DNA of 64,000 nucleotides from Oscillatoria sp. PCC 10802 (GCF_000332335.1 NZ_KB235948.1:4222977-4286976), one strand, 5' to 3'. Shown: positions 3,464 to 17,588, counted from the stretch's first letter. Notes: a model not told the origin generated them from the letters alone. Translations and numbers: made by a program.

Positions 3464-5293
3464 TTAAATTTGATAGTACCTTGCCTGCAGTTCAAACAAG
3501 CGGGCGTAAGTCCCGCCAAACCGCAGCAGTTCTTCGTGGGAGCCGGCTTCTACAATTCTACCATCTTGCAACACAAAGATGCGATCGACCATCTTGACGG
3601 TTGAGAGCCGGTGGCTAATCAGAATCGCAGTTTTTCCTTGAATCAGCTGGCGAAACTGTTCAAAAACTTCGTGTTCCGCTTTGGCATCCAGGGCGCTTGT
3701 GGGTTCGTCGAGAATGAGAATTTGCGCTTGACGCAAAAAAGCTCTAGCAATGGCAACTTTCTGCCACTCGCCGACGCTCAGTTCTTCCCCCTCCTCAAAT
3801 TGCGTGCCTAATGTAGTGTCGTAACCTTTGGGAAGTCGGACGATGGCTTTGTCTGCGCCCGCCTCCCGCGACGCTTTGAGAATTTCTTCCTCATCGGGGA
3901 AGATGCTGACATTGCCAAAGGCAATATTCTCCCTTGCGGTTAAATTATAGCGCACATAGTCTTGAAAGATGGCGCTAATTTCTCGCCGCAAGTCTGTGGT
4001 GGTGAATTGGCGCAAGTCAACCCCATCGATAGTGATGCGCCCGCTTGTCGGATCGTAGAGCCGGCACAATAATTTAATGAGCGTGGTTTTTCCGGCTCCG
4101 TTTTCGCCCACCAAGGCAACTGTCTCACCGGCGCGAATTGTCAGGTTAATATCTTCTAGCAAGGGGCGGGCGCTTTGGGGATAATGAAAATAAACGCCCT
4201 CGAACTGAATGCCGGTCTGTAGGGGATTGGGGACGGTTTGCGGACGCGCCGGCTCGATAACCGAGCGCTTTAATTCCAGAAATTCGTACAGAGTAGAGAG
4301 AAACAAGCTATTTTCATACAGACTGGCGAGACTGGTGAGCATTTCTCGCAAAAACCCCTGCCCCCGCTGAAATCCTTGGTAGTACATCACCAGCCCGCCT
4401 AAGGTAATTTGCCCTTGGATTGTCTGGTAAGCGATGAAACCGCAAGCTGTAAAAACGGCTACTGTGCCGCTAGCTTGGGTCATCAATTCTGCAATCGATC
4501 TATGGCTGGCTAGGGCGAGTTTTTCCTGACGGATTTGCTGGCGCAGGTTGCTGTAGCGCGTGCGAAATACAGGACCTAAGTCAAACAGCCGCACTTCTTT
4601 GGCATAGGAGTCTTGGGTGAGCATTATATGAAAGTAGTAAGCAATGCGCTCTTGAACAGTCCAGCCTCGCTGCCGGCGGTACAGCTTGCCGGTGTGCTTC
4701 AAACGCACAAATAAACCGGGAATACCGGCAGCAAATAGCACTGCAGCGATTCCCCAGTGCAGGGAAATTAACAGCCCCGCTATTGCTACGAGGGAAATTC
4801 CGTTTTGAGCCAGCTGTACGAGACTGGTAAGGATGCGGGTGGGGCGGTAAATCGCTTCTTGTTGGGCGCGGTGGAGGGCGTTGTAAAATTGGGCGTTTTC
4901 GTAATATTCCAGGTCTACTTCTATGGATTTCGCGTGCAAGAGGTCATGGACGAAATCGGTGACGATTTGCGACTGAGCCTCGCTTGCGTACCCGGATAGA
5001 GAGCGGCATATGTCGCCAAACAGTGCGGTAATTCCTGCTAAGATTACTAGCAGGAGTACCTGGGAGAAGGCTGCGGCGCGATTGCCGGCTCCTATGCCGG
5101 CGGTTACCGCATCGATGAGCAGTTTCATTAAATAGAGCGAGAGCAAGGGCAATAAGCCCTGTACCAGCAAGAGTGCGAGACTGACAGCAGTCCATAGGGG
5201 CGTGCTTTGCCAGACTAGCCGTATGGCTCTGGGCAGATTCTCTATGTTCTGAAGTTTATTTTTCAAGGGAGGAGTGCCGGGGGTATTTGTCAA
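3464..5293 (-). CDS. ABC exporter, fused permease/ATPase (MsbA/McjD-like), candidate lasso-peptide exporter
   Basis: 609 aa ORF. The N-terminal half has six predicted TM helices. The C-terminal ATPase has Walker A GENGAGKTT, signature LSVGEWQK and Walker B ILILDEPTSALD. It is divergently oriented from the lasso cyclase gene. Confidence 0.8.
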   Translation of the reverse strand: MTNTPGTPPLKNKLQNIENLPRAIRLVWQSTPLWTAVSLALLLVQGLLPLLSLYLMKLLIDAVTAGIGAGNRAAAFSQVLLLVILAGITALFGDICRSLSGYASEAQSQIVTDFVHDLLHAKSIEVDLEYYENAQFYNALHRAQQEAIYRPTRILTSLVQLAQNGISLVAIAGLLISLHWGIAAVLFAAGIPGLFVRLKHTGKLYRRQRGWTVQERIAYYFHIMLTQDSYAKEVRLFDLGPVFRTRYSNLRQQIRQEKLALASHRSIAELMTQASGTVAVFTACGFIAYQTIQGQITLGGLVMYYQGFQRGQGFLREMLTSLASLYENSLFLSTLYEFLELKRSVIEPARPQTVPNPLQTGIQFEGVYFHYPQSARPLLEDINLTIRAGETVALVGENGAGKTTLIKLLCRLYDPTSGRITIDGVDLRQFTTTDLRREISAIFQDYVRYNLTARENIAFGNVSIFPDEEEILKASREAGADKAIVRLPKGYDTTLGTQFEEGEELSVGEWQKVAIARAFLRQAQILILDEPTSALDAKAEHEVFEQFRQLIQGKTAILISHRLSTVKMVDRIFVLQDGRIVEAGSHEELLRFGGTYARLFELQARYYQI

Positions 5294-5443
5294 GATGAGG
5301 GAGTCTGTGATATATTATAGTTTAGCTATGAGGGGTGACGCAAGTGCAGCTAAGTTCCTGGCGATTGGAAATCGCGGCTATACAAACAAAGCCCGCCTTC
5401 GCGGGCTAATTGTTGCAGAAAACCGGTTTCTGGGGGGCGGAGT

Positions 5444-5632
5444 GGGGGCTGAGAAACCGGGTTTCTGATTAAAGGTTTCGAGGAGGAGGCAAGGTTTGTC
5501 GCAGAAACCCAGTTTCTGGGTTTCTGGAGGGCGGAGTGGGGGCTGAGAAACCGGGTTTCTGATTAAAGGTTTCGGGGGGGAGGCAAGGTTTGTCGCAGAA
5601 ACCCGGTTTCTGGGGTTTCTGGGCACTTTCGT
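5444..5632. repeat. Two tandem copies of the GAAACCGGGTTTCT MITE-like element in the divergent promoter region
   Basis: Near-identical ~85 bp units of the form GAGAAACCGGGTTTCTGATTAAAGGTTTCGgGGAGGAGGCAAGGTTTGTCGCAGAAACCCgGTTTCTGG. Confidence 0.8.
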
Positions 5633-5717
5633 GGGATGATAGGTTTGCACCGGCAAGCCCCCGCGCTTGCCCGAAACAAATTGTGCGACACTCGTTTAAA
5701 TAAGGTCATTTTATGCT

Positions 5718-7583
5718 ATGAGCGGTATTGTCGGTATTCTCAACGGCGACGGCGAACCTGTTGACCGCGCCCTGTTACAGCAAATGACCGATTTAATGGC
5801 CTTTCGCGGCCCAGATGCTCTCGATATCTGGAGTGCGGGTCATGTTGGGTTCGGTCACGCCCTCTTGCGGACGACTTGGGAATCAGAAAAAGAACGGCAA
5901 CCTCACAGTTTGGATGGGGAAGTTTGGATTGCGGCTGATGTGCGCCTGGACCGGCGCGACGAGTTGATGGACCGGCTGCGTGCCGGTGGGTGCAGCCCAA
6001 TTAGCGACGCGCCCGATGCTGACCTGATACTGCACGCCTACCGTATTTGGGGAGAAGCTTGTCTGGAGCACCTGAGTGGGGATTTTGCCTTTGCTATTTG
6101 GGACAGCCGGCAGCAGCGCCTATTCTGCGCCCGCGACCAGTTTGGGGTGGTGCCATTCTACTATACAGAAATCGGGAAAAGCCTGATTTTCAGCAACACC
6201 CCCGACTGCCTGCGCCTCCACCCGCAGGTATCGGATCGCTTCAATGAGCGAGCGATTGGCGATTTCCTGCTATTTAGTATGAATATGGATGTCGCCACGA
6301 CCACCTTTGCCGATATCCAAAAGTTGCCTCCCGCCCACACCCTTATTTGGTCGGAGGGAGAGGTGCGGGTGCGGCGTTACTGGCAGTTGCCGGAAGCAGT
6401 TGAATACCTGCGTTACAAGCGCCCGGAGGAATATGTCGAGCAGTTTCGGGAATTGTTTGAAAGGGCGGTGGGCGACCGGCTGCGGACGGAGAGCGCCGGC
6501 ACCCATTTAAGCGGCGGAATGGACTCTACCAGTATCGCCGCCACGGCTTATAAATTAATGGCGGCAAGTGGTAAAATTGTGGATTTTCGGGCTTACACGA
6601 TCGTCTACAAACAGCTGATTTCCGACGAAGAAGGGGGCTACGCCACGCAGGTCGCTGAGGCTGCCGGTTTCCCAATTGAGTGCCTCGTGGCGGAAGATTA
6701 CATACAGCAGGCACCACCGGAACAGCCGGAATATATCTCTCCGGAACCCCTAATGATTCCGAACCAACTCGCTGAAACGGAAATTAATAGGCGCACCGCC
6801 GGCTGCAGTCGGGTGCTGCTCGCTGGGTTTGGGGGCGATCCGGCGTTTTACCCATCGCCGGCTTACTGGTACACTTTACTACAAACCGGCAAGTTTCAGC
6901 ATTTTATGCTAGATGCGCTGGCTTACATCCGCTGTTTTCGCCGGTTGCCGCCCTTGGGGTTGCGATCCGGAGTGCGCCGGTGGCTGAAAAGAGGGGACTT
7001 GCGGCAGCAAGAGATTGATTGTCCCGACTGGTTAAACCCAGATTTCGCAGAGCGAGTGAATTTGAAAGCGCGACTCCAAGAAATCTGGACTGCGCCACCG
7101 CAGAAAGACCGCTACGGGATGGCGGCGGCTCCCTTGTGGTGGAACATTTTTGCGTGGGCAGATCCGGGCTTCAGTGGCTTTCCTCTCAAAGTTCGTTTTC
7201 CCTTTTTCGATGTGCGTTTGGTGCTATACTTGCTGTCAGTGCCGCCGGCTCCCTGGTTTGAAAATAAATTGTTGCTGCGGGAGGCCATGAAAGGCGTGTT
7301 GCCCGATTCCGTGCGACAGCGACCCAAAACACCGCTGCGAGGTTTCGCCCATTACAACTTAATGCAGCAGCGAGGAATCCAGCCCTGGATGGTAGAATTG
7401 GCAGCAACACCGGCCCTGACCCCCTATGTCAGCAGCCAGCGCCTGTTGCAAAGACTGCAAGCCCTTGCAGAACTCACCCCTGCCAGCTACAGTCAGGCTG
7501 TCCCAGCCCTGCAACTGGCTTACTGGCTGCGCCACCAGCGTCGTCCAGAAGTCAAGACCAGACCAATTGTTTCCCTGATTTGA
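5718..7583 (+). CDS. lasso peptide isopeptide-bond-forming cyclase (C protein, asparagine synthetase B homolog) #1
   Basis: 621 aa ORF. The N-terminus is MSGIVG, with no Cys2 glutaminase nucleophile. It retains the PP-loop SGGMDST and the AsnB-like DFAFAIWD...LFCARD motif. It sits directly upstream of a precursor peptide gene. Confidence 0.8.
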   Translation: MSGIVGILNGDGEPVDRALLQQMTDLMAFRGPDALDIWSAGHVGFGHALLRTTWESEKERQPHSLDGEVWIAADVRLDRRDELMDRLRAGGCSPISDAPDADLILHAYRIWGEACLEHLSGDFAFAIWDSRQQRLFCARDQFGVVPFYYTEIGKSLIFSNTPDCLRLHPQVSDRFNERAIGDFLLFSMNMDVATTTFADIQKLPPAHTLIWSEGEVRVRRYWQLPEAVEYLRYKRPEEYVEQFRELFERAVGDRLRTESAGTHLSGGMDSTSIAATAYKLMAASGKIVDFRAYTIVYKQLISDEEGGYATQVAEAAGFPIECLVAEDYIQQAPPEQPEYISPEPLMIPNQLAETEINRRTAGCSRVLLAGFGGDPAFYPSPAYWYTLLQTGKFQHFMLDALAYIRCFRRLPPLGLRSGVRRWLKRGDLRQQEIDCPDWLNPDFAERVNLKARLQEIWTAPPQKDRYGMAAAPLWWNIFAWADPGFSGFPLKVRFPFFDVRLVLYLLSVPPAPWFENKLLLREAMKGVLPDSVRQRPKTPLRGFAHYNLMQQRGIQPWMVELAATPALTPYVSSQRLLQRLQALAELTPASYSQAVPALQLAYWLRHQRRPEVKTRPIVSLI

Positions 7584-7609
7584 AGAAATTGAAATTCAGG
7601 AGGAAAACT

Positions 7610-7774
7610 ATGTCCCAAACAACTCCCAACCAAGCAAATGCTGCGAATAAAAAGGCATACCACACCCCGCAATTGCGGAAATTTGGCAATGTTAGCGAAC
7701 TGACGTTTACTAATATCACTAATTCGTCTGGGAATCCGGATGGCGGTTCACTTCCTGCTGTGTATGCTTCGTAA
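7610..7774 (+). CDS. lasso peptide precursor (A3): MSQTTPNQANAANKKAYHTPQLRKFGNVSELTFTNITNSSGNPDGGSLPAVYAS
   Basis: ATG at 7610 sits 8 nt after AGGAGG. The ORF-track start at 7580 is an upstream in-frame Met. The leader matches the proteobacterial class II motif Y-x2-P-x-L-x3-G-x5-T-x (YHTPQLRKFGNVSELTF). The peptide ends in Ser. It lies directly after the cyclase gene. Confidence 0.7.
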   Translation: MSQTTPNQANAANKKAYHTPQLRKFGNVSELTFTNITNSSGNPDGGSLPAVYAS

Positions 7775-7892: not shown

Positions 7893-8933
7893 ATGAGTAT
7901 TTTAGAGAGAATGGGTGAGTTTTTTAGATATAGATCCTATGGCTTAACGCTACAGGCAAATCGACCTCTACCAGGGTTAATGGCTACCTCCGACCATGCG
8001 CCGGTCGATGTCTGGGTGGATTTGATGGGAGAGCGTAGTTCAAACCCCTCAGCACCCCAAGCAACTCCAAACTTTACTCCTTACCAGAATCAGGAAGAGG
8101 AGTTTGGGATGCGGGTGTGGACTGAGCAAACGGGAGACGGTCACTACATAAGGTTGTGGTTTCGCGGTCCTGTCAAGCCTTCAGGGAAAGTCGATTTCAG
8201 GCTCGATGAAGATGGGAAACGAATCTCCGTTACCTGGACTGAGATGGTGCTAGAGGATGTGATATCACTTTTGCTCGGTTCAGTTTTGGGGTGTGTATTG
8301 CGGCTGCGGGGGACAGCCTGTCTCCACGCCTGTACAGTAGCGGTCGGCGAGCGTGCTATTGCGATTTTGGGAGAGAAAGGGGCGGGTAAATCAACGACTG
8401 CTGCGGCATTAAGCCAGCGCCAAATGTCGATTTTATCCGACGACATTGCCGTTCTTAACGATAGCGGTAAGAATTTTTCAGTACAGCCTGGCTATCCGCA
8501 CCTGCGACTGTGGCCAGAGGCGATAGATGCCCTCTACGGTTCAGAAGTGGATTTGCCGCCAGTTCTAACCGGCTGGGAAAAACGCTATATTAATTTGATT
8601 GACGGTGGGGGATCGTCTGCATGGGGATTTCAAAGCGATCCCCTGCCTTTGGGGGCGATTTACGTCCTGGGAGAACGGGTGCCTTCTTTGGCAGCACCGG
8701 CGCTTGAACCCATTCCCCCGGCAACAGCTGTGATGGCGCTGATGGCGCACAGATCGGCAAGCTTTTTAACATTAGAGCGAGAGAAGCAAGCGCGGGAGTT
8801 TGCCGTCCTCAGTCGCGTTGCTGCGACAGTGCCGGTGCGAAAAGTGATTCGCCCCGATAGCTTGGATGCCTTGCCCCAACTGTGCGATGCTATTTTGGAA
8901 GATTTGGCGGGGAATAAATGCACTCTACTTTAG
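7893..8933 (+). CDS. HPr kinase/phosphorylase C-terminal-domain-like kinase (lasso peptide Ser kinase candidate) #1
   Basis: 346 aa ORF with P-loop GEKGAGKSTTAAAL followed by SDDIAVL, as in the HprK_C fold. It is paralogous to the ORFs at 14485-15588 and 27342-28424. It is co-operonic with cyclase and precursor. Confidence 0.7.
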   Translation: MSILERMGEFFRYRSYGLTLQANRPLPGLMATSDHAPVDVWVDLMGERSSNPSAPQATPNFTPYQNQEEEFGMRVWTEQTGDGHYIRLWFRGPVKPSGKVDFRLDEDGKRISVTWTEMVLEDVISLLLGSVLGCVLRLRGTACLHACTVAVGERAIAILGEKGAGKSTTAAALSQRQMSILSDDIAVLNDSGKNFSVQPGYPHLRLWPEAIDALYGSEVDLPPVLTGWEKRYINLIDGGGSSAWGFQSDPLPLGAIYVLGERVPSLAAPALEPIPPATAVMALMAHRSASFLTLEREKQAREFAVLSRVAATVPVRKVIRPDSLDALPQLCDAILEDLAGNKCTLL

Positions 8934-10018
8934 CTGAATCTGTGGATGTGCTTTTGGGGGCGGGCGCGGAAGCACCGGCACTGCAGCATTTAATTGCGCC
9001 GGCTGCCGTATTAGAATTAAAAAAATTGGCTGCTAATTTAGCTCCGATTCTGCGGGGTGGCTTTGAGTGCCGGCTGGCTGCAAATACACCCCAAGTAGAT
9101 TTGCAGCAGTGCGTTGTGCCAGACGAGAGCGAATTGACTTTGCTGCGAGAGCACATTGCTGCTGTCACCGGTGCCGGTGGGGTGTCCCCACATCCGGGGT
9201 GGTCACAGTTACAGGATTTCCTTGCTCAGTGGTGCGAGCCACTCTCCCCACTCCATAACAGCATACCAGAAATCTGGCTGGAGTTTGACATTAACAGCCC
9301 ATCTGTTATCCTGCCAGTACCGGCGATTTTCTTTGGGTTGCCCCAAGACGTATCGCCAGCGGTTGAACCCTATCCCATCGCAGCGAAAGCCCTCGATTTG
9401 CTGCTAGGTGAGTTGGGTTGGTGCGCGTGGCGAGACAATCTCTATCGCTGCTTTGCAGCTTGTCCCGATGGCGTGTTTGTCAGTCACATCGGGGTGATGT
9501 TATCGCGAAAGGCACCGGCTTTGCGAGTCAATGTCAAACGTTTGCTTCCCGACTCGCTGGTTCCCTACCTGCAACAGATTGGCTGGGAGGGGGAAACAGA
9601 CGAAGTGGGATCGCTGATGGAGCAGCTGTTGGCTTTCGCCGATCGGATAACGGTTTGTCTGGATGTGGGGGAGAGAATTTATCCCCAAATTGGGTTAGAA
9701 TGTATTTTACTGAAACAGCCCCAAAGCGAACCTCGCTGGACTGCTTTTCTAAAGTATCTGGTAGACGGAGGTTTGTGTGCGCCGGCAAAGGCAGAGGCGC
9801 TGTTAAACTGGCCAGGACAAACGAATCCCGCCGGCGCACCGGCACCTTGGCCAGGTGAGTTGATTGCGGCGTCGCTGTTGCAGCCTCCAAATTGCTTTAG
9901 CGTCTTCGAGCGCCGGTTGAGCCACATTAAAATTGTTTGGCAACCGCAACGCCGGCTAGAGGCTAAAGCCTATCTCTGGTTCCAGCACCAGTGGCTGTCT
10001 GTGGAAAGGAAAAGGTGA
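8918..10018 (+). CDS. hypothetical protein (conserved in lasso operon; function unknown)
   Basis: 366 aa ORF whose start overlaps the kinase stop, suggesting translational coupling. No motif recognised. Codon usage is consistent with its neighbours. Confidence 0.5.
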   Translation: MHSTLAESVDVLLGAGAEAPALQHLIAPAAVLELKKLAANLAPILRGGFECRLAANTPQVDLQQCVVPDESELTLLREHIAAVTGAGGVSPHPGWSQLQDFLAQWCEPLSPLHNSIPEIWLEFDINSPSVILPVPAIFFGLPQDVSPAVEPYPIAAKALDLLLGELGWCAWRDNLYRCFAACPDGVFVSHIGVMLSRKAPALRVNVKRLLPDSLVPYLQQIGWEGETDEVGSLMEQLLAFADRITVCLDVGERIYPQIGLECILLKQPQSEPRWTAFLKYLVDGGLCAPAKAEALLNWPGQTNPAGAPAPWPGELIAASLLQPPNCFSVFERRLSHIKIVWQPQRRLEAKAYLWFQHQWLSVERKR

Positions 10019-10896: not shown

Positions 10897-12144
10897 ATGA
10901 GTGAAAAAATTCAAAACGAAACCGTGCCTTTGCCATTTAATCCGCGCTCGTCAGAGTTTCGCGCCAACCCCTATCCCACTTATCACTATCTGCGGACTCA
11001 CCACCCCATCTACTATCGGCCAGAATGGAACGATTGGGTGCTGACGCGCTACGCTGATATTGTGGAAGTTCTGCAAAATTATGGTGCCGGTCATTCAGAA
11101 CAATTACTCACTAACTTACAGACCTCGGACGCGCCAATTAATCGATTATTGGCGTCGCGGAACGAAAGTCAAAAACTGTTGAAGCTGTGGTTAGTGCTGA
11201 GAAATCCGCCTGACCATACCAGAATGCGCCAAGTGGTTCAAAACACTTTCACTTTCCAGAATATTCAAGCTCTGCGGGAGCGCTTAGAAGCCAGAGTTAA
11301 CGCTCTCATCGAGCGGGTCAAAGATAAAGGTAAGATGGAGATTGTTGACGATGTTGCTTATCCGGCATCCGTGGGAGCGATCGGTGAAATATTAGGAATC
11401 CCCCAACTAGAAGAGGATCGCCGGTTCAAGCTGTGGTCGCAAGAGCTGTCACTATTGATTGATATGGATGTGACTCCAATCAACCAGGAGCGAGGTTTGC
11501 TAGCGTTTTCTGGTCTTGTCGATTACTTCCGCAGTTTCATTGCCAAATGCCGCACCTATTGCCCCCCTCAAGATAACTTGATTGGCACGCTGATTCAAGC
11601 GCAAGCGGAGGGAAAAGTGAGCGAAGAAGAACTCATAGCAAATTGCATCCTCATGTTTTTTGCCGGACACTCCACCACTAAGCATCTGATCGGCAACAGC
11701 ATAGTGGCATTACTGCAGCATCCCGATCAGTTACGCCTGCTACAAGCAGACCCATCGCTGATTGAAATGGCCATCAATGAAGTCTTGCGCTATAACAGTT
11801 CGTTCCAAGGAGTTTCCCGCACCGCTTTACACGACATAGAACTCTCAGAGGGAGCGATTAAAAAGGGCCAAATCGTTCACTGTCTAATAGGTGCAGCAAA
11901 TCGCGATCCAGCCCAGTTCCCCGATCCCGACAAGTTTGAGATTAGACGCAACCCAAATTCATCCCTTTCTTTTGGTCACGGAATACATTTCTGCTTTGGG
12001 TTACACTTGGCAAGATTGGTGGCTAAAACAGCGGTAGGGACAGTGGTGCGCCAGTTGCCAGGGTTATCCTTAGAAACGGAATCCCTCGCATGGGAAGAAA
12101 CTTTCCTAGCACGCGGGTTGAAATCTTTGCCGGTCGTCTTTTAA
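10897..12144 (+). CDS. cytochrome P450
   Basis: 415 aa ORF with the heme-binding loop FGHGIHFCFGLHLA, the I-helix AGHSTT and an EVLR (ExxR) motif. Confidence 0.85.
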   Translation: MSEKIQNETVPLPFNPRSSEFRANPYPTYHYLRTHHPIYYRPEWNDWVLTRYADIVEVLQNYGAGHSEQLLTNLQTSDAPINRLLASRNESQKLLKLWLVLRNPPDHTRMRQVVQNTFTFQNIQALRERLEARVNALIERVKDKGKMEIVDDVAYPASVGAIGEILGIPQLEEDRRFKLWSQELSLLIDMDVTPINQERGLLAFSGLVDYFRSFIAKCRTYCPPQDNLIGTLIQAQAEGKVSEEELIANCILMFFAGHSTTKHLIGNSIVALLQHPDQLRLLQADPSLIEMAINEVLRYNSSFQGVSRTALHDIELSEGAIKKGQIVHCLIGAANRDPAQFPDPDKFEIRRNPNSSLSFGHGIHFCFGLHLARLVAKTAVGTVVRQLPGLSLETESLAWEETFLARGLKSLPVVF

Positions 12145-12152
12145 TCCCTCTC

Positions 12153-12371
12153 TCAAGAATTGTAAATCAACCAGCGCATCGCCCAGTCGTGTTTGTGCGC
12201 TGCTTGCAGTTCCTCAACCGTAAAAGTCACACCGGCTTCAGCGCCAAGTTTGACGAGAGTGTCCAAGTCCGGGCTGTTATTAAGGGCCAAAAGTTTACTT
12301 TTTAGCCCCACATCAGCCCGCACTTGCTGGATAAATTGTAAAGCGGTTTGCACAGACATCCGTTTTCTCAA
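12153..12371 (-). CDS. Nif11-domain protein (stand-alone)
   Basis: MSVQTALQFIQQVRADVGLKSKL...AGVTFTVEELQAA matches the Nif11 fold. There is no GG cleavage motif or core region. The likely start is the internal MSVQ. Confidence 0.6.
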   Translation of the reverse strand: MRKRMSVQTALQFIQQVRADVGLKSKLLALNNSPDLDTLVKLGAEAGVTFTVEELQAAHKHDWAMRWLIYNS

Positions 12372-12475: not shown

Positions 12476-14488
12476 TTACAAAACATCCAGCCAGATTGCC
12501 AAATCCGCCGTTTTAGCCAGCAGCTTCGACAACCGCCTTTTCCGGCTCCCTTCAGTTTGAGGGTTGAGAAACTCCTGATACTGTTTGGATAAAACTTTCC
12601 TGCTCACATAATTTCCTAAAGCAGATTCCCGATTAAACAGCAAATCTTCTAGCAATTTCGGTTCTTCTTTTTCCAGACCTTTGACAATTATCTCAGAAAA
12701 ATCAATTTTGCTCGATCGCTCCCTTACTTCCGGCGGTAATATATCGATCATAGCACAGCGCATCACTCCTCGTCCCATGCCGTTATAAAACTTCAAAGTT
12801 GCTGGGGCTGCTAAACACAACTCTATCACTCTCTTATCTAAAAACGGGTGTCGTGGTTCTATAGATAAACCGCTACATATCCCGTCTATTTCCTCCGTGG
12901 AGTTGAGAAGATTATCTGAGAGAATCCCCCGAGAATGAGCCCTGTATTCCGAAGGGACATATTCGGCAAACTGACACTCATATTCTCGCTCGATTAACTG
13001 CTGCAAATTAATCTCTTTTGCCAGAGCAGCACTCACGGCTGGATTGTACTGTTGCCAGCGAACTTTATGGGAAATAAGGCTGTGTTTCAATACCCTTAAA
13101 TTTTGCCAAAGCCCCCAGGGTCTGTGACCGACTATTTCTGCAAAAAGTTTCAAAAACTTGCTGTAATTTTCTTGGCTCACCTGATGTTTCAAATAAGGCA
13201 CAATATGCTGAAAAATTTGTGAGTTCAATTTCGTTTGTAACTCACTCTCTTTTACCTGATACACTTTCAGATACGCGACAATTACCTCTATCAAATTTTG
13301 CCAATTTTCTAGCTCAACTAACTCAGCCAAGTAATGTCGCCCGTGAGAAACAATTGTATCGCCGTCATGCCCCGTTAACATCACTCTTGCCCCTTGTTGC
13401 TGGGCTGCCTGTACTGCTGCCAATAATATCACTGGAGTCGGCATTTGCAGGGGTTGATTTATCCAAGAAATAGTGGTTTGAGCAGCGCTAATCACGTTCC
13501 TGTCGATAGGGGTGAAGCAGTGCTGAAATCCCCCTCCGGCTAATACAGCCCGCACATAAGATTTTTCATCGGTAGATTCCAGCCCGCCATCTCCATAAAT
13601 GGTGATTAAATCAGCGCCATTGCCTTGCTGCTTTAAAAAATTCCGCGCCACGCAGCTGACTGAAGAGGAATCCAACCCGCCACTCAAATTCGATGCTACG
13701 GGGTAAGCGCTTCGCAGGCGACAAACCACGGCTTGGGTGAATCGTTCTTGAAATGCCTCAATGTACTCTCTTTCGGAGTTGAGTTTTATTTTTGCGGCTT
13801 CCCCTTCTAAATCCCAATAAGGTTTTAACCGGCACCCTTGCGGGCTGACTGTCATCCAGTGTGCGGGAGGCAAGCGAAAAATATTTCGGTAAAATGTCTC
13901 AGTTTTTAACGCCGCAAATCCCGTCAGCTGACACAGGAAAACTCCCAGCTTTGCATCGTTCACTTGACGCGGCACCTCTTCTAAACTGAAAAGGGCTTTG
14001 ATTTCGGAACCAAAGGCAAAAAACTTGTCGGGCTGGCAGTAATAATAAAACGGCTTGACTCCCATCGCATCTCTGGCACAAAAAAGCTGCTGATCGTAGC
14101 GATTCCAAATGGCAAAGGCAAAGTCACCCAAGAGTTTTTCCGGACAAGACTCGCCCCATTTTTCATAAGCCGCCAGTATCAGTTCGCTATCGGTTATCGT
14201 TTCTCGCGGGTTCCCCCTCATCCCCAAGGCAGCGATTAATTCATCTCGGTTATCAATGCGAGCGTCTGCCGTCAGTACGAGATTTCCCCCTCGCTTCGCC
14301 AGCGGGAGTTTTTCGTGCAGAGATTCCGGCGTCACCCACAACATCCGGTGCCCTAAACCCACAGCGCCTTCCCTCCAGATTCCCGCTCCATCGGCACCGC
14401 GATGCGCTAAACTATCTACCATGCGGGCGAGGGTTTCTGCGCCGGCTGAGCGCTCGTCAAAAAAATAAATGCCAGTGATGCCACTCAT
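12476..14488 (-). CDS. lasso peptide cyclase (C protein, asparagine synthetase B homolog) #2
   Basis: 670 aa ORF. The N-terminus is MSGITGIYFF, with no Cys2. It has the PP-loop SGGLDSSSV and DFAFAIWNRYDQQLFCARD. The start overlaps the upstream kinase stop (ATGA). Confidence 0.8.
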   Translation of the reverse strand: MSGITGIYFFDERSAGAETLARMVDSLAHRGADGAGIWREGAVGLGHRMLWVTPESLHEKLPLAKRGGNLVLTADARIDNRDELIAALGMRGNPRETITDSELILAAYEKWGESCPEKLLGDFAFAIWNRYDQQLFCARDAMGVKPFYYYCQPDKFFAFGSEIKALFSLEEVPRQVNDAKLGVFLCQLTGFAALKTETFYRNIFRLPPAHWMTVSPQGCRLKPYWDLEGEAAKIKLNSEREYIEAFQERFTQAVVCRLRSAYPVASNLSGGLDSSSVSCVARNFLKQQGNGADLITIYGDGGLESTDEKSYVRAVLAGGGFQHCFTPIDRNVISAAQTTISWINQPLQMPTPVILLAAVQAAQQQGARVMLTGHDGDTIVSHGRHYLAELVELENWQNLIEVIVAYLKVYQVKESELQTKLNSQIFQHIVPYLKHQVSQENYSKFLKLFAEIVGHRPWGLWQNLRVLKHSLISHKVRWQQYNPAVSAALAKEINLQQLIEREYECQFAEYVPSEYRAHSRGILSDNLLNSTEEIDGICSGLSIEPRHPFLDKRVIELCLAAPATLKFYNGMGRGVMRCAMIDILPPEVRERSSKIDFSEIIVKGLEKEEPKLLEDLLFNRESALGNYVSRKVLSKQYQEFLNPQTEGSRKRRLSKLLAKTADLAIWLDVL

Positions 14489-15588
14489 ATTATGCCTTGT
14501 TCAATTGCCGCGACGAATGTGTTGAGCATTTTAAAATTTTGGGGGCGCTGCCATTTCCAGAGTTCCACGCGACTGAGCAAGTTAGCGCACTGCTGAAAAT
14601 GATGCTGAAGTGCAGCTCCTTTCAGGATAGCACTCGGACAGGGAAAAAAGCGCGTCAGCATCAAAAAAGCTTCTCTCGGCTCCATTTTGGCAATCTTTAG
14701 CTCGCTCGACAGACGCACATTATCCTCCGGGGGCGGGTTTATTGCAACCCTTTGCTGTGCCATCAAGTTTTCGGGCGAACCCGCCCCTGCGCTGACTGTC
14801 TCTAACAGGAAAATCCGATTTACAGAAAGTGGTGTCAGGGGAAAATTTTCCCGCTGTTGAATCACTTGTTTTCGCGAACCCGGAAACAGCGGCGATAAAC
14901 TGGAGGGATCGCAGCCAATGCCATCCACGGCTGATGGCCATATTTTGATTTGGGGAAATGCCGGCAAAATTACGGGTTGGGGGTGAGAGTCAAGTGAAAT
15001 GGCAACCATATCGTCGGCTAGCACCTGATGGCCTTTTTTGGCAAAAGCTGCAACAGTGGTTGATTTGCCGGCACCTGGAATCCCGACAAAGACTGTCACT
15101 TCTTCCCCGATTTTTACCGCGCTCGCATGGAGCAAAAATAAGCCTTTTTGATACAGTATTAATCCCAGTGCCTCGCTTAAAATATAGAGGTTTAACAATT
15201 GCCGGTCAACAGCTCCTTCCCCAACCGGCGCAACCGCAGTGGGATTGCTCCGGTTCGGGGCAACCACGGGGGGATTGCCCTTGCAATCTGGCTGGACAGT
15301 CAGACGGGTGCCACCTACCGCTAATATTGTAACGACTCCCGGCCATTGCAGGTAAGCTTCTTGCTTGTTGCCGCAAAATAAGGCTTCAATTCCTTGGCGT
15401 TTAATTGAGGTCGGCTCCAGTTTGGGATGTGTGATTTTGCCTTTGACAATGCAAACATCCTCCCCTTTACCTCCTGCGATGAGTTCAGGGAACTCAAGTT
15501 CGGAGGCAATATTTAAACCGTAAGCTTGATAGAACAACATCTTTGCTATGGCTAGTAAATGCCGCCCTAACATTTGTTTATAAACCAA
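14485..15588 (-). CDS. HPr kinase C-domain-like kinase #2
   Basis: 367 aa ORF with P-loop GIPGAGKSTTVAAFAK and LADDMVAI. Paralog of the ORF at 7893-8933. Confidence 0.7.
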   Translation of the reverse strand: MVYKQMLGRHLLAIAKMLFYQAYGLNIASELEFPELIAGGKGEDVCIVKGKITHPKLEPTSIKRQGIEALFCGNKQEAYLQWPGVVTILAVGGTRLTVQPDCKGNPPVVAPNRSNPTAVAPVGEGAVDRQLLNLYILSEALGLILYQKGLFLLHASAVKIGEEVTVFVGIPGAGKSTTVAAFAKKGHQVLADDMVAISLDSHPQPVILPAFPQIKIWPSAVDGIGCDPSSLSPLFPGSRKQVIQQRENFPLTPLSVNRIFLLETVSAGAGSPENLMAQQRVAINPPPEDNVRLSSELKIAKMEPREAFLMLTRFFPCPSAILKGAALQHHFQQCANLLSRVELWKWQRPQNFKMLNTFVAAIEQGII

Positions 15589-15789: not shown

Positions 15790-15942
15790 TCACGACGGCG
15801 GTGCCATATTTCCCCCCATCCCATCCGTATTGCTTCCCGATGTCGCTTGAGTGATGTTTTGGATACTTCCGTAGGGGGTTAGAGTGGGTTTTTTGTAAGG
15901 CAGTTTGCCTTGGCTGTTTGCTTTATTTCCTGCGTTCTTCAT
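15790..15942 (-). CDS. lasso peptide precursor A1: MKNAGNKANSQGKLPYKKPTLTPYGSIQNITQ|ATSGSNTDGMGGNMAPPS
   Basis: Hand-translated 50-codon ORF that is below the ORF-track size cut-off. An RBS-like AGGAGAAATTATG precedes it. The leader matches Y-x2-P-x-L-x3-G-x5-T-x exactly (YKKPTLTPYGSIQNITQ). The predicted core is A1..D8 (8-residue macrolactam ring) plus a 10 aa tail ending in Ser. Confidence 0.75.
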   Translation of the reverse strand: MKNAGNKANSQGKLPYKKPTLTPYGSIQNITQATSGSNTDGMGGNMAPPS

Positions 15943-16190: not shown

Positions 16191-16373
16191 CTAACGCTTC
16201 ACCTCAATGGGAGAATCAAACATGGCAAAGCGCGAGCGCACATCCTGAGTGTCATTGAGCACAGTACCCTCCCACTCCACCCAAGCGTGCGCCTCAAAAT
16301 TCCCCGCCTCCCGTTTTACCCCAATCCGCAATTCGCTGTCAATTCCCTGCCGGCGCAGCACGCCCCACAGCAC
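16191..16373 (-). pseudogene. 3' fragment of the lasso B2 protease gene (duplicated remnant)
   Basis: The 60 aa encoded are ~97% identical to the C-terminal 60 aa of B2 at 16823-17311. There is no N-terminal catalytic region. It lies inside tandem-duplication unit 1. Confidence 0.7.
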
Positions 16374-16479
16374 CAGCGACTTCTTCAGGCAATTCGCCCA
16401 AGGCTGGCAATATTTCGCCGCTAACTGTACCCTGCGGCCAGGTTAAATTTGACAGGTGCTGATTCACAATTAATCACGT

Positions 16480-16623
16480 CTAAACAAGATTTCCACCCAT
16501 CCCATCCGTATTGCTTCCCGATATCCCTTGAGTGATGTTTTGGATACTTCCGTATGGGGTTAGGGTGGGTTTTTTGTAAGGCAGTTTGCCTTGGCTGTTT
16601 GCTTTAGTTTCTGCGCTCTTCAT
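16480..16623 (-). CDS. lasso peptide precursor A2: MKSAETKANSQGKLPYKKPTLTPYGSIQNITQ|GISGSNTDGMGGNLV
   Basis: Hand-translated 47-codon ORF preceded by AGGAAAAATTATG. The leader is identical to A1 from KANSQGK onward. The predicted core is G1..D8 plus a 7 aa tail ending in Val. Confidence 0.75.
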   Translation of the reverse strand: MKSAETKANSQGKLPYKKPTLTPYGSIQNITQGISGSNTDGMGGNLV

Positions 16624-16822
16624 AATTTTTCCTGCTCAAATGATTTGTCCTTATGGCCCTTGACTTCCGGGGGCGGGTTGATTGCAACTCGGAGTTTGGC
16701 CAGCTAGGGATCAGGCCAGCCCCGCCCCCTACAGCTTTGGGTTTTGAATGATTTTATCCTACACCTGTAGGGCGGCTCTGTCAAGGGATTGCGCCCCGTT
16801 CTATCTGACGCCTACCGGCGCT

Positions 16823-17311
16823 CTAACGCTTCACCTCAATGGGAGAATCAAACATGGCAAAGCGCTCGCGCACATCCTGAGTGTCATTGAGCACAGTCCC
16901 TTCCCACTCCACCCAAGCGTGCGCCTCAAAATTCCCCGCCTCCCGTTTTACCCCAATCCGCAATTCGCTGTCAATTCCCTGCCGGCGCAGCAACCCCCAC
17001 AGCACCAGCGACTTTTTCAGGCAATTCGCCCAAGGCTGGCAATATCTCGCCGCTAACTGCACCATGCGGATAGCCCTCACAATCGTGAGATTGCGCTCCT
17101 CACTTGAGAGTGGCAATTTGGCTGCCGGCAGCCACCTCGCCAAAGCAGTTTGCGTGAAACCCAGCCCCCTGAATTTTAGCGACAGTGCAACTAGGGGGAG
17201 CAACAGAAAAGCTTGCAAAAGCAGCCGGCGGGAATTTCCGTCCAGCCGGCAAAAACTGCGGGATTTACGAACCAGTAACTTCAACCAGCCCATGCGCCAA
17301 TAACTCTTCAA
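16823..17311 (-). CDS. lasso peptide leader peptidase B2 (transglutaminase-like Cys protease)
   Basis: 162 aa ORF with the Cys motif ANCLKKSLVLWGLL and His in GNFEAHAWVEW. It overlaps B1. Confidence 0.8.
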   Translation of the reverse strand: MKSYWRMGWLKLLVRKSRSFCRLDGNSRRLLLQAFLLLPLVALSLKFRGLGFTQTALARWLPAAKLPLSSEERNLTIVRAIRMVQLAARYCQPWANCLKKSLVLWGLLRRQGIDSELRIGVKREAGNFEAHAWVEWEGTVLNDTQDVRERFAMFDSPIEVKR

Positions 17312-17588
17312 TTAGATTCCCCACATCCTGCTGTAACTGTTCTGGCTCAATGTCGTACTCAGCCCCCAGCGCATCTATCGCCTTCCCGACAGACTCCCTC
17401 TCTGTCAGCGCTTGCCAGATCCGGCTGCCAACATCATCCAGGCCAAAATACTGTTCCGTCTGGAGGTTCAGCAGCACCGACTCCCCAGCCAAGTCTTGAA
17501 CCAGAACATTGGGAGCCACTGAAACTTTTTGGTTAGTTTGGAATTTCAACAAGTTTGCCCTCCTCTCAATTTGGTATAATTGTATCAC
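17265..17588 (-). CDS. lasso peptide B1 protein (PqqD-like RiPP recognition element)
   Basis: 107 aa ORF with the PqqD-family pattern VLVQDLAGESVLLNLQTEQYFGLDDVGSRIWQAL...DVGNLIEELLAHGLV. Confidence 0.8.
   Translation of the reverse strand: MIQLYQIERRANLLKFQTNQKVSVAPNVLVQDLAGESVLLNLQTEQYFGLDDVGSRIWQALTERESVGKAIDALGAEYDIEPEQLQQDVGNLIEELLAHGLVEVTGS

What the first reader, a model, noticed from the sequence alone, without database searches (positions are those of the whole stretch)
3464..17588. Heavily tailored, bidirectional lasso-peptide supercluster in a cyanobacterium
Two asparagine-synthetase-like cyclases lacking the Cys2 nucleophile sit on opposite strands. A single B1/B2 pair, two HprK-like kinases, a P450, a SAM methyltransferase, an unknown 366 aa protein and a McjD-like ABC exporter surround three precursor genes. 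The plus-strand operon runs C–A–K–hyp–MT–P450 and has no B1/B2. The minus-strand operon (B1–B2–A2–[B2 fragment]–A1–K–C) would have to supply leader processing in trans. Lasso systems carrying HprK-like kinases are described from Firmicutes (paeninodin, pseudomycoidin) and by genome mining in Proteobacteria. A cyanobacterial cluster combining kinase, P450, methyltransferase and multiple precursors is, to my knowledge, uncharacterised.
Basis: partly seen in the sequence, partly recalled or inferred. Interest (0 to 1): 0.9.

Follow-up and report, generated by a model that had tools for sequence, protein, structure and literature searches.

The report
Composite lasso-peptide cluster with a prenyltransferase
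This Kamptonema formosum (cyanobacterium) gene cluster should make two kinds of knotted "lasso" peptides with one shared leader-processing pair, and one product is probably phosphorylated and lipid (prenyl) decorated by an enzyme family with no database annotation; it is real and uncharacterised, but it is a variant of a known kind of system.

Summary
Window 3464-17588 encodes two Cys-less Asn-synthetase-like lasso cyclases, one B1/B2 pair plus a B2 pseudogene remnant, two HprK/PEPCK-fold kinases, a SAM methyltransferase, a P450, an ABC exporter and three precursors. The lasso leader motif occurs only three times in the 64 kb. The organism is Kamptonema formosum.

New points:
- The layout ABC | C'-A-K'-PT-MT-P450 | Nif11-B2-B1 recurs in at least 12 other loci. 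B1/B2 and the ABC gene are orthologous to that system's genes.
- Close relatives carry only B1-B2-A-K-C, one of them with deletion scars of the PT block.
- With the canonical cleavage rule, C'-type cores have their only acidic residue at position 9-11 (here 11). Known lasso rings have 7-9 residues.
- Only the plus-strand precursor family conserves a C-terminal Tyr-x-Ser.

Verdict: a genuine, uncharacterised new variant of a known kind. The product chemistry is inferred, not shown.

The parts
3464..5293 (-). ABC exporter (609 aa), a shared 'frame' gene
   Evidence: ABC_membrane + ABC_tran. It is 54-78% identical to the ABC gene that sits divergently upstream of C' in PT-type clusters (L006, L009, L011, L013, L014). 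It is 78% identical to the ABC gene that directly follows A-K-C in L041.
5718..7583 (+). C': divergent lasso cyclase (621 aa), N-terminus MSGI, PP-loop LSGGMDS
   Evidence: NF033535 379 bits (below the 525 cut-off, but the best family); Asn_synthase and GATase_7. Orthologues at 67-76% identity in PT-type clusters.
7610..7774 (+). A3 precursor (54 aa): leader ...YHTPQLRKFGNVSELTF, predicted core TNITNSSGNPDGGSLPAVYAS
   Evidence: AGGAGG 6 nt upstream of the ATG. Leader motif. NF033528 E 8e-6. Fourteen family members share the DGG and C-terminal Y-x-S features.
7893..8933 (+). K': HprK/PEPCK-fold P-loop kinase (346 aa, GEKGAGKST); overlaps the next gene by 16 nt
   Evidence: Pfam Hpr_kinase_C E 1e-4 and TIGR04352 E 6e-7. 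Family-wide PF07475/PF27840 hits. AF2 pLDDT 88, Foldseek hits to PEPCK and HprK/P at E 1e-7 to 1e-6.
8918..10018 (+).
10044..10886 (+). Class I SAM methyltransferase, CMAS-like (280 aa from the TTG; the true start may be the ATG at 10140)
   Evidence: CMAS 47 bits plus other MT families. Nearest solved structures are CFA synthase, UmaA, mycolic-acid MTs and an FPP methyltransferase, with similarity over the Rossmann part only. Fused to the PT domain in L005, L006, P0040, P0370.
10897..12144 (+). Cytochrome P450 (415 aa)
   Evidence: PF00067 103.6 bits. Best NCBIfam hit is the cyclodipeptide-synthase-associated P450 family, below the cut-off. Best PDB match is BioI, 3e-73. Present in most PT-type clusters but not all; absent in L013 and L003.
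12153..12359 (-).
   Evidence: Pfam Nif11 35.4 bits (cut-off 23.8); TIGR03798 31.3 bits (cut-off 32.3). Found next to the PT gene in about 20 lasso-type loci. The C-terminal motif is conserved and there is no GG cleavage site.
12476..14488 (-). Cm: lasso cyclase of the common cyanobacterial type (670 aa), MSGI, LSGGLDS
   Evidence: NF033535 663.6 bits, above the 525 cut-off. 52-56% identical to NCBI-named lasso cyclases of Nostoc and Moorena.
14485..15588 (-). Km: second HprK-like P-loop kinase (367 aa, GIPGAGKST)
   Evidence: TIGR04352 E 1e-8 and Hpr_kinase_C E 4e-4. 48-51% identical to the ScmC-like kinases of Cm-type clusters. 32% identical to K' in the P-loop core.
15790..15942 (-). A1 precursor (50 aa): leader ...YKKPTLTPYGSIQNITQ, core ATSGSNTDGMGGNMAPPS (Ala1-Asp8 ring predicted)
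   Evidence: A promoter-like TTGACA-17-TAGGAT lies upstream.
16191..16440 (-). B2 pseudogene remnant (last ~80 codons), part of the tandem duplication 15758-17069
   Evidence: 95% identical to the B2 C-terminus, with in-frame stops upstream. Duplicated unit of about 680 nt, 91-94% identical. Absent from the relative L043, which has a single copy.
16480..16623 (-). A2 precursor (47 aa): same leader, core GISGSNTDGMGGNLV (Gly1-Asp8), no C-terminal Ser
16823..17311 (-). B2 leader peptidase (transglutaminase-like, 162 aa)
   Evidence: NF033537 102.7 bits (cut-off 33); PF13471 84 bits. 66-72% identical to the B2 of PT-type clusters and 35-49% to the B2 of Cm-type clusters.
17265..17588 (-). B1 PqqD-like RiPP recognition element (107 aa from the GTG)
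   Evidence: PF05402 68.6 bits; NF033536 64.9 bits (cut-off 80). 65-73% identical to the B1 of PT-type clusters and 39-45% to the B1 of Cm-type clusters.

Best explanation
This is a composite lasso-peptide biosynthetic cluster. Two lasso modules share one leader-recognition and leader-protease pair (B1, B2) and one ABC exporter.

Module 1 is a conserved but uncharacterised cluster type. It consists of C', A3, K', the PT-barrel protein, the methyltransferase and the P450 on the plus strand, together with the Nif11-like gene, B2, B1 and ABC.
1. B1 binds the YxxPxL leader of A3.
2. K' phosphorylates the conserved C-terminal Ser of the linear precursor.
3. B2 cuts after Thr(-2)-Phe(-1).
4. C' adenylates the single Asp (Asp11 of TNITNSSGNPDGGSLPAVYAS) and closes a macrolactam onto Thr1.
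5. The PT-barrel enzyme transfers an isoprenoid to the conserved near-C-terminal Tyr19.
6. The CMAS-like methyltransferase, which is fused to the PT in sister clusters, and the P450 then tailor the prenyl group or the same residue.
7. The Nif11-like protein probably acts as a partner or adaptor of the PT.

Module 2 consists of A2, the B2 remnant, A1, Km and Cm on the minus strand. It makes ordinary 8-residue-ring lasso peptides (Ala1-Asp8 and Gly1-Asp8) using the same B1/B2.

Shown here: gene identities, folds, synteny, domain fusions and motif conservation. Inferred: every chemical step, the order of steps, the Tyr acceptor, the prenyl chain length, the ring size and the threaded topology.
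For: Lasso core machinery
- Profile hits for Cm, C', B1, B2 and the three precursors.
- No Cys2, and SGGxDS is present.
- The leader motif occurs 3 times against 0.5 expected.

Conserved module 1
- The same gene order is found in L002, L005, L006, L008-L011, L013, L014 and L016 (and, in partial or variant form, in L003, L023 and L032).

Shared B1/B2 and ABC
- Identity is 65-72% to PT-type clusters and 35-45% to Cm-type clusters.
- L043, whose Cm is 93% identical to this one, carries B1-B2-A-K-C with the same B1/B2 (89% and 94% identical). It also carries deletion scars of C' (the first 62 codons) and of the MT/P450 junction.
- L041 has A-K-C followed directly by the orthologous ABC gene.

Prenyltransferase
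- Conserved E, D, R, K, H and Y residues sit with i/i+2 spacing on the barrel strands.
- Homologues are fused to a squalene-hopene-cyclase-like domain above the Pfam threshold. This includes the lasso contexts L018, L020 and L032.
- That architecture matches NctPC, a characterised cyanobacterial ABBA PT::terpene cyclase that geranylgeranylates a peptide Trp (PMC13290415).

Acceptor residue
- Y-x-S-COOH is found in 10 of 14 distinct family precursors.
- Distant PT homologues sit beside Nif11- or NHLP-leader precursors whose cores end with a near-terminal Tyr or Trp, such as GNGYS, NQYTP, NSY and SSSW.

Kinase
- Fold evidence. Literature: lasso HprK homologues phosphorylate the C-terminal Ser of the linear precursor (PMC8498205).

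Methyltransferase
- It occupies the same fusion slot as the terpene cyclase. Its nearest relatives methylate olefins or FPP.
Against: - No chemistry was observed.
- The PT family has no sequence-level match to any solved or curated prenyltransferase. The assignment rests on a predicted fold plus domain fusions.
- Inactive PT homologues such as PatF exist.
- An 11-residue ring would be outside the 7-9 aa range of characterised lasso peptides (PMC13352647). C' also scores below the curated cyclase cut-off.
- The characterised relatives of the PT (MppC, NctPC) act on Trp of Nif11-leader substrates, and MppC is strictly leader-dependent. That would favour the Nif11-like protein as the substrate.
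- Precursors of relatives of the Km module do not end in Ser, so Km's target is unclear.
- A2 has a shortened C-terminus and the duplicated B2 is a remnant, so part of module 2 may be decaying.
Confidence: 0.6

Rival explanations
1. Hybrid cluster with two unrelated products. The PT, methyltransferase and P450 do not touch the lasso peptide. They modify the Nif11-like 68-aa protein at a conserved Trp or Tyr of its C-terminal HKHDWxMRWLxY segment, as leader-dependent ABBA prenyltransferases do with Nif11-leader precursors.
For: - MppC needs the Nif11-like leader in cis and prenylates a Trp just downstream of it (PMC12715784).
- NctPC also prenylates Trp.
- The Nif11-like gene co-occurs with the PT gene in about 20 lasso-type loci.
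- In Kamptonema and Rivularia the protein ends ...[IV]YNS, resembling the A3 end ...VYAS.
Against: - The Nif11-like C-terminus is conserved across phyla rather than hypervariable, and it has no GG or GA cleavage site.
- The PT gene overlaps K' and lies in the C'-A3 operon.
- A3-family cores conserve a near-terminal Tyr, as do the substrates next to distant PT homologues.
- No peptidase-ABC transporter for a GG leader is present in the cluster.
Confidence: 0.17
2. The A3 product is not a threaded lasso. Because the only acidic residue lies 9-11 residues from the predicted N-terminus, C' makes an unthreaded branched-cyclic lariat. Alternatively the mature N-terminus is trimmed to give a 7-9-aa ring, or in some relatives no ring is made at all.
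For: - Acidic residue positions are 9, 10 or 11 in 12 of 14 C'-associated cores, whereas every Cm-type core has D8 under the same cleavage rule.
- Characterised lasso rings have 7, 8 or 9 aa.
- L020 has the leader, B1, B2, K', PT::cyclase and the Nif11-like gene. It has no cyclase gene within 12.7 kb and no Asp or Glu in the core.
- C' is below the curated cyclase cut-off and its C-terminal third is diverged.
Against: - C' keeps the full Asn-synthetase-like architecture and the PP-loop.
- It is syntenic with B1/B2 in many genomes.
- The DGG motif after the Asp is conserved, like TDG in A1/A2.
- Topology cannot be read from sequence.
Confidence: 0.25
3. The 366-aa protein is a catalytically inert PT-barrel. 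It would serve only as a peptide-binding scaffold for the methyltransferase, as PatF is an inactive cyanobactin prenyltransferase homologue. On this reading no prenylation occurs.
For: - No sequence-level similarity to active prenyltransferases.
- PatF appears among the structural hits.
Against: - Invariant charged and aromatic residues with strand periodicity: E50, D61, W120-E122-D124, R203, E261, R332-H336-K338, K350-Y352.
- Recurrent fusion to a class II terpene-cyclase-like domain would be pointless without an isoprenoid.
- The characterised NctPC has the same architecture.
Confidence: 0.1
4. Module 2 is a decaying passenger and the cluster effectively makes one product. A2 is truncated, the second B2 copy is a pseudogene and Km lacks its usual substrate feature.
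For: - A2 ends early after a 3-nt deletion and substitutions.
- The B2 remnant has in-frame stops.
- A C-terminal Ser is not conserved in the Km lineage.
- Relatives show gene loss at this locus.
Against: - Cm, Km, A1 and A2 are all intact ORFs.
- Cm scores above the curated cut-off.
- Both precursor copies keep a promoter-like element, the leader and the x1..D8 core.
- In L043 it is the PT block that was lost, while module 2 was kept.
Confidence: 0.1

Closest known systems
Phosphorylated lasso peptides: paeninodin (Paenibacillus), ThcoK/SyanK systems, pseudomycoidin
   Same: Split B1/B2, an Asn-synthetase-like cyclase, an ABC exporter and an HprK-homologous kinase. The A3-family precursors end in Ser, which is the residue those kinases phosphorylate on the linear precursor (PMC8498205).
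   Different: The phylum is different. The kinases match HprK only weakly in sequence. A PT-barrel protein, a CMAS-like MT, a P450 and a Nif11-like protein are added. There is no adjacent nucleotidyltransferase; the nearest is 15 kb away. A2 and the precursors of Km-lineage relatives (L038-L041, L043) lack the C-terminal Ser; A1 itself ends ...APPS.
NctPC and MppC: cyanobacterial ABBA-type peptide prenyltransferases of Nif11/NHLP-leader RiPPs (Hubrich et al. 2024, as summarised in PMC13290415; Wakeel et al. 2025, PMC12715784)
   Same: [quoted passage not shown] Relatives of the 366-aa protein are fused to a class II terpene-cyclase-like domain, exactly the P+C architecture described for NctPC. 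Distant relatives sit beside Nif11/NHLP-leader precursors.
   Different: I could not obtain the NctPC or MppC sequences, so family identity is inferred from architecture and context only. Here the partner is a methyltransferase rather than a cyclase. The substrate carries a lasso leader. The likely acceptor is Tyr, not Trp. The Nif11 domain is a separate small protein.
Prenylated actinobacterial lasso peptides (Trp prenylation, Harris et al. 2024; collinodin, Shi et al. 2025; both known to me only through citations in PMC12715784 and PMC13352647)
   Same: A lasso scaffold plus a prenyltransferase. Prenylation is reported to be leader-independent and to occur after the interlocked structure forms.
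   Different: I could not read these papers, so the PT family used there is unknown to me. No kinase, MT or Nif11-like component is mentioned in the citing texts. The phylum is different.
Nocapeptin/longipeptin P450-tailored lasso peptides (PMC10664482)
   Same: A lasso BGC with a cytochrome P450 and a methyltransferase as secondary tailoring enzymes.
   Different: There the P450 makes biaryl crosslinks and the MT S-methylates Met. Kinases and cyanobacteria are not mentioned in that paper, and prenyltransferases were not searched for. Here the P450 is optional within the cluster family.
Common cyanobacterial lasso clusters (NCBIfam NF033535/NF033528; e.g. Nostoc sp. UHCC 0702, Moorena producens PAL)
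   Same: Cm, Km and A1/A2 belong to this lineage. Cm is 52-56% and Km 48-51% identical, and the cores follow the x1..D8 pattern.
   Different: Those clusters carry their own B1-B2, a 213-aa protein, a JmjC oxygenase, an ABC gene and NTP_transf_5, with the order C-A-K. Here the order is A-K-C and B1/B2 are borrowed from, or shared with, the PT-type system.
Caulosegnin-type multi-precursor lasso clusters
   Same: One enzyme set processes several precursors, and that set tolerates both 8- and 9-aa rings (PMC13352647).
   Different: Here there are two cyclases and two kinases but one B1/B2, and the predicted ring sizes are 8 and 11.

Membership tests
Lasso peptide biosynthetic gene cluster | Asn-synthetase-like macrolactam cyclase without the N-terminal Cys nucleophile and with an ATP PP-loop | tested here: met
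   Cm scores 663.6 bits on NF033535 (cut-off 525). C' scores 379 bits on the same model, below the cut-off. Both start MSGI and carry SGGxDS.
Lasso peptide biosynthetic gene cluster | PqqD-like RRE (B1) and transglutaminase-like leader peptidase (B2) | tested here: met
   PF05402 68.6 bits; NF033537 102.7 bits (cut-off 33); PF13471 84 bits.
Lasso peptide biosynthetic gene cluster | Precursor with a YxxPxL...Thr(-2) leader and an Asp/Glu at core position 7-9 | tested here: inconclusive
   A1 and A2 meet both criteria (D8). A3 meets the leader criterion, but its only acidic residue is D11; the family range is 9-11.
Lasso peptide biosynthetic gene cluster | Threaded lariat topology of the product | not testable with these tools
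   Requires NMR, ion-mobility MS or protease and thermal stability assays.
Phosphorylated (paeninodin-type) lasso peptides | HprK-homologous kinase encoded in the cluster | tested here: met
   P-loop present. Sequence hits are weak (E 1e-4 to 1e-8, below cut-offs). The K' model matches HprK/P and PEPCK at E 1e-7 to 1e-6. Family-wide PF07475/PF27840 hits.
Phosphorylated (paeninodin-type) lasso peptides | Precursor ends in Ser, the phospho-acceptor | tested here: inconclusive
   A3 (…VYAS) and most of its family: yes. A1 (…APPS): yes. A2 (…NLV): no. Precursors of relatives of A1 end in A, F, D or N.
ABBA / PT-barrel aromatic prenyltransferases | Ten-stranded barrel built from five alpha-beta-beta-alpha repeats | tested here: met
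ABBA / PT-barrel aromatic prenyltransferases | Sequence membership in a curated PT family (Pfam or NCBIfam models, including cyanobactin F-type PTs) | tested here: not met
   No Pfam or NCBIfam hit at E <= 0.01. The family profile finds no PT among PDB sequences at E <= 10.
ABBA / PT-barrel aromatic prenyltransferases | Basic and aromatic residues lining the barrel for diphosphate binding, plus an acidic residue for Mg2+ or as a base | tested here: inconclusive
   Invariant or near-invariant E50, D61, E122, D124, R203, E261, R332, H336, K338, K350 and Y352 lie on strands with i/i+2 spacing. I made no coordinate-level superposition.
ABBA / PT-barrel aromatic prenyltransferases | Prenyl-diphosphate-dependent alkylation activity | not testable with these tools
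   Indirect support only: fusion of homologues to squalene-hopene-cyclase-like domains (PF13243 30-46 bits, cut-off 26.1).
Nif11-like leader RiPP precursors (N11P, TIGR03798) | Nif11 domain at the N-terminus | tested here: met
   PF07862 35.4 bits (cut-off 23.8); TIGR03798 31.3 bits (cut-off 32.3).
Nif11-like leader RiPP precursors (N11P, TIGR03798) | Gly-Gly type cleavage site followed by a variable core | tested here: not met
   No GG or GA site. The 16 residues after the domain (HKHDWxMRWLxY) are conserved from cyanobacteria to Entotheonella and Rhodothermia. I therefore do not file it as a precursor.

The most novel reading that the evidence does not exclude
The C'-type system makes a new structural class of lasso, or lasso-like, lipopeptide. 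It would have a 10-11-residue macrolactam, larger than any characterised lasso ring. The tail would be held, or membrane-anchored, by a methylated and oxidised prenyl group on the near-C-terminal Tyr and by a phosphate on the terminal Ser. The stand-alone Nif11-like protein would be a trans-acting 'orphan leader' that docks a normally leader-dependent prenyltransferase onto a substrate carrying a lasso leader. The CMAS-like methyltransferase would attack the prenyl C=C, in the slot that a class II terpene cyclase occupies in sister clusters.
Probability: 0.2. Interest if true: 0.85.

Novelty: new variant of a known kind. Interest (0 to 1): 0.65.

Why it matters
- No cyanobacterial lasso peptide appears to have been characterised in the literature I could search.
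- This cluster type is conserved across many filamentous and symbiotic cyanobacteria and in Entotheonella. It predicts a lasso scaffold that is both phosphorylated and isoprenoid-decorated, a combination I did not find described.
- It assigns a fold, and a likely function, to a large protein family that has no Pfam or NCBIfam model (about 4,200 representatives at 50% identity). This family is a possible source of peptide-lipidating biocatalysts aimed at near-C-terminal Tyr or Trp.
- It raises a concrete, testable question about the upper limit of lasso ring size.
- The window and its relatives L041 and L043 form a natural series (composite cluster, A-K-C only, and a PT block reduced to deletion scars). 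This series shows how RiPP modules share one RRE/protease pair and are gained or lost.

Tried and rejected
- Bona fide AsnB: rejected. There is no Cys2 at the first possible start, and the lasso-cyclase model outscores asn_synth_AEB.
- Assembly artefact for the convergent junction: rejected. An independent Logan contig reproduces Km-Cm-Nif11-P450-MT exactly.
- Assembly artefact for the tandem duplication: rejected. The copies have diverged to 91-94% identity.
- Sequence-level assignment of the 366-aa protein: nothing found with Pfam, NCBIfam or a family profile against PDB sequences. Only fold search and domain fusions were informative.
- phmmer of both kinases against PDB gave only marginal HprK hits (E 0.08-0.6) and no lasso-kinase structure.
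- 'B1/B2 belong to the minus-strand module': not supported by identity to ordinary Cm-type clusters. My stricter first idea, that A-K-C was simply inserted into a PT-type cluster, had to be softened. L041 (A-K-C-ABC) and L043 (B1-B2-A-K-C with scars) show that the frame genes are shared, and that the direction of gain and loss is unresolved apart from the proven loss in L043.
- Nif11-like protein as a classical precursor: rejected on motif grounds.
- I could not read Harris 2024, Hubrich 2024, Tietz 2017 or Zhu 2016; they are not held.
- I could not obtain the MppC or NctPC sequences, so identity of the PT family with those enzymes is untested.
- Rfam found only a tRNA in the window.
- Terminator and promoter scans were not above shuffled expectation overall.

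Full report
**1. What is there**

- Plus strand: a 621-aa Asn-synthetase-like protein (C', 5718-7583); a 54-aa ORF with its own AGGAGG (A3, 7610-7774); a 346-aa P-loop protein (K', 7893-8933); a 366-aa protein with no family hit (8918-10018, overlapping K' by 16 nt); a SAM methyltransferase (10044-10886); and a P450 (10897-12144).
- Minus strand: B1 (17265-17588), B2 (16823-17311), A2 (16480-16623), a B2 remnant (about 16191-16440), A1 (15790-15942), Km (14485-15588) and Cm (12476-14488).
- An ABC exporter (3464-5293, minus strand) lies divergently upstream of C'.
- The 366-aa protein is 100% identical to a Kamptonema formosum protein.

**2. Is it a lasso system?**

- Cm passes NCBI's curated lasso-cyclase model (663.6 against 525 bits). 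C' has that model as its best hit but falls below the cut-off (379 bits), and it diverges from Cm after residue ~410.
- Both start MSGI at the first available start codon and keep SGGxDS.
- B2 and B1 pass their models.
- The strict leader motif occurs only at the three precursors in the whole window, against 0.5 expected. All three hit NF033528 'lasso_cyano'.
- With the Thr(-2) rule, A1 and A2 give Ala1-Asp8 and Gly1-Asp8 cores. Every precursor of related Cm-type clusters in Nostoc, Moorena and a metagenome follows the same pattern.

**3. The duplication**

- A unit of about 680 nt, made of the 3' end of B2, the intergenic region and the precursor, is tandemly duplicated. The copies are 91-94% identical.
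- The second B2 copy has in-frame stops upstream.
- A2 ends ...GGNLV and A1 ends ...GGNMAPPS, because of a 3-nt deletion and substitutions.
- Each copy keeps a TTGACA-17-TAGGAT promoter-like site.
- A close relative (L043, Cm 93% identical) has a single copy.

**4. The plus-strand operon is a conserved cluster type**

- The 366-aa protein has 134 word-indexed homologues, mostly cyanobacterial but also from Entotheonella and Candidatus Kentrum. Many are fused to the methyltransferase.
- Thirty-two genome loci were fetched and annotated by BLAST against the window's proteins.
- A recurrent architecture emerges: ABC (minus) | C'-A-K'-PT-MT-P450 (plus) | Nif11-like-B2-B1 (minus). It is seen in Prochloron, Phormidium, Oscillatoria, Nodularia, Roseofilum, Rivularia and unnamed cyanobacteria. 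An actinobacterial-like metagenome contig has everything on one strand: B1-C'-A-K'-PT::MT-P450-B2. Entotheonella carries a related locus (C'-A-K'-PT-MT, with a Nif11-like gene and a PqqD gene nearby) but no ABC, P450 or B2 within the fetched stretch.
- The window's B1/B2 are 65-72% identical to the B1/B2 of these clusters. They are 35-45% identical to the B1/B2 of ordinary Cm-type clusters, whose Cm and Km are 52-56% and 48-51% identical to the window's.
- Convergent supply of B1/B2 'in trans' is therefore the native state of the C' system.

**5. Relatives show that the modules are separable**

- L041/L042 (about 77% nt identity) carry A-K-C followed directly by the orthologue of the window's ABC gene (78% aa identity). 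This equals the window's minus strand without the 5294-12465 block.
- L043 (about 94% nt identity) carries B1-B2-A-K-C. After the Cm stop it has a 55-nt island from the MT/P450 junction (window 10854-10908), joined to the first 62 codons of C' and its upstream region.
- These are deletion scars. A composite ancestor lost the PT block and kept module 2 with the same B1/B2.
- This is the best available evidence that one B1/B2 pair serves Cm and A1. Whether the composite first arose by gain of A-K-C or by gain of the PT block is not resolved.
- No other fetched locus combines a PT-type cluster with a Cm orthologue. Roseofilum has a different second lasso set next door (L014).

**6. The unknown protein**

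- AlphaFold with a 41-sequence alignment gives pLDDT 92 and five alpha-beta-beta-alpha repeats.
- There is no sequence-level link to curated or solved prenyltransferases.
- Invariant E50, D61, W120-E122-D124, R203, E261, R332-H336-K338 and K350-Y352 sit on strands with i/i+2 spacing, as expected for a lined barrel.
- A profile search of 1.84 billion representatives finds 4,184 members.
- Long members carry one of three C-terminal partners: a CMAS-like methyltransferase, a squalene-hopene-cyclase-like domain above the Pfam threshold, or a 2OG oxygenase. The cyclase fusions include the lasso-type loci L018, L020 and L032.
- A PT::class-II-cyclase fusion with low similarity to cyanobactin PTs is exactly how the characterised cyanobacterial enzyme NctPC is described. 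NctPC geranylgeranylates a peptide Trp and then cyclises the isoprenoid (PMC13290415).
- I therefore read the 366-aa protein as a peptide prenyltransferase (about 0.8).
- I read the methyltransferase, whose nearest relatives methylate olefins or FPP, as a tailoring enzyme of the prenyl group. That second reading is inference.

**7. Likely acceptor and kinase target**

- Fourteen distinct C'-associated precursors share the leader YHxPxLxKFGxVSxLT[LF], a DGG motif and, in most cases, a C-terminal Y-x-S.
- Distant PT homologues outside lasso contexts sit beside Nif11- or NHLP-leader precursors. Their short cores end with a near-terminal Tyr or Trp: GNGYS, GDYCCS, NQYTP, NSY, REY, SSSW.
- This points to Tyr19 of A3 as the acceptor.
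- Lasso HprK homologues phosphorylate the C-terminal Ser of the linear precursor (PMC8498205). The K' model has the HprK/PEPCK fold. Ser21 is thus the likely K' target.
- For Km the analogy is weak. A2 and the precursors of relatives end in V, A, F, D or N.

**8. Ring size anomaly**

- The cleavage rule gives D8 for every Cm-type precursor. The same rule puts the only acidic residue of C'-type cores at position 9, 10 or 11, and at position 11 in Kamptonema.
- A 2026 review states that characterised lasso rings have 7, 8 and 9 residues (PMC13352647).
- Either C' closes larger rings, or the N-terminus is trimmed, or the product is not threaded.
- L020 has a core with no acidic residue and no cyclase gene. 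This shows that the kinase/PT/Nif11-like tailoring set can work apart from lasso formation.

**9. The Nif11-like protein**

- It passes Pfam Nif11, lacks a GG site, and has a C-terminal HKHDWxMRWLxY segment conserved across phyla.
- MppC, a cyanobacterial ABBA PT, must dock onto the structured nucleus of a Nif11-like leader (PMC12715784).
- A stand-alone Nif11 domain beside a PT that now faces a lasso-leader substrate suggests an adaptor role. The rival reading is that it is itself the substrate. This remains open.

**10. Novelty and literature**

- Lasso phosphorylation, P450 tailoring, methylation and, since 2024-25, Trp prenylation are each known in Firmicutes, Proteobacteria or Actinobacteria.
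- Cyanobacterial lasso clusters are auto-annotated by NCBI models and are noted in genome surveys, for example in Roseofilum.
- I found no characterised cyanobacterial lasso peptide and no description of this cluster type.
- Verdict: a real, intact, uncharacterised new variant of a known kind. The strongest new leads are the prenyltransferase assignment, the shared B1/B2, the ring-size anomaly and the Nif11-like partner.

Noticed in passing
window 26846-35118: A second RiPP-like locus lies 9 kb downstream of the lasso cluster. It has a PqqD-domain protein (26846-27334, whose C-terminal tail contains the leader-like FEPPKLDKY) and a third HprK-like P-loop protein (27285-28424). These are followed by three GT2 glycosyltransferases (28428-30682), an ABC exporter (30517-32385), an NTP_transf_5 nucleotidyltransferase (32548-33768) and a SAM methyltransferase (34006-35118). 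There is no cyclase, no B2 and no leader-motif ORF. NTP_transf_5 genes also lie near PT-type lasso clusters in L003, L006, L011, L014, L020 and L023. A link to the phosphorylated lasso products, as in pseudomycoidin glycosylation, is possible but untested.
   Followed up: partly
window 3120-3195: A tRNA-Met (CAT) lies about 270 nt from the 3' end of the ABC exporter gene, so the left border of the cluster abuts a tRNA gene.
   Followed up: no
window 5425-5612: Two tandem copies, 96% identical, of a 94-nt element lie in the divergent ABC/C' intergenic region. Each unit folds into two hairpins built from GGTTTCTG/CAGAAACC arms; the fold z-score is only -1.45. Part of this region is retained in the deletion derivative L043.
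   Followed up: partly
window 14726-14787, 15985-16046, 16666-16727: A 62-nt GC-rich element lies upstream of A1 and A2 within the duplicated unit; the one copy folded (upstream of A2) forms a hairpin, but not significantly more stably than shuffled sequence (z -0.96). A third copy, 71-73% identical, lies inside the Km coding region.
   Followed up: no
window 7852-7874: The hairpin GAGAGGGG-N7-CCCCTCTC lies between the A3 stop and the K' start (segment z-score -2.5). It could be an attenuator that sets the ratio of precursor to enzymes.
   Followed up: no
L043:4700-5135 (relative, Logan SRR15359038): Deletion scars. After the Cm stop comes a 55-nt island matching window 10854-10908 (the MT end and P450 start), then the first 62 codons of C' and its upstream region. 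The PT block and the P450/Nif11-like genes have been lost, while B1-B2-A-K-C is kept.
   Followed up: yes
L020:5135-12302 (Aerosakkonema sp. BLCC-F183): A lasso-type leader precursor with core GSSIGGGGGGSTYVP (no Asp or Glu) sits with B2, B1, two HprK-like kinases, a PT::squalene-hopene-cyclase-like fusion and a Nif11-like gene. There is no cyclase gene within 12.7 kb. This may be a lasso-leader-guided linear prenylated RiPP.
   Followed up: partly
protein family of window 8918-10018: The PT-barrel family has about 4,184 representatives at 50% identity (1,961 at E <= 1e-30) and no Pfam or NCBIfam model. Its members have three alternative C-terminal fusion partners: a CMAS-like MT, a class II terpene-cyclase-like domain or a 2OG oxygenase.
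   Followed up: partly
L014:13463-17182 (Roseofilum acuticapitatum BLCC-M154): In this genome the PT-type cluster lacks its usual B1/B2. It is followed by a different lasso set (kinase fragments, B1, B2 and a 636-aa cyclase, 30-34% identical to the window's). This is another case of two lasso modules side by side, and probably the cluster reported in PMC9967302.
   Followed up: no
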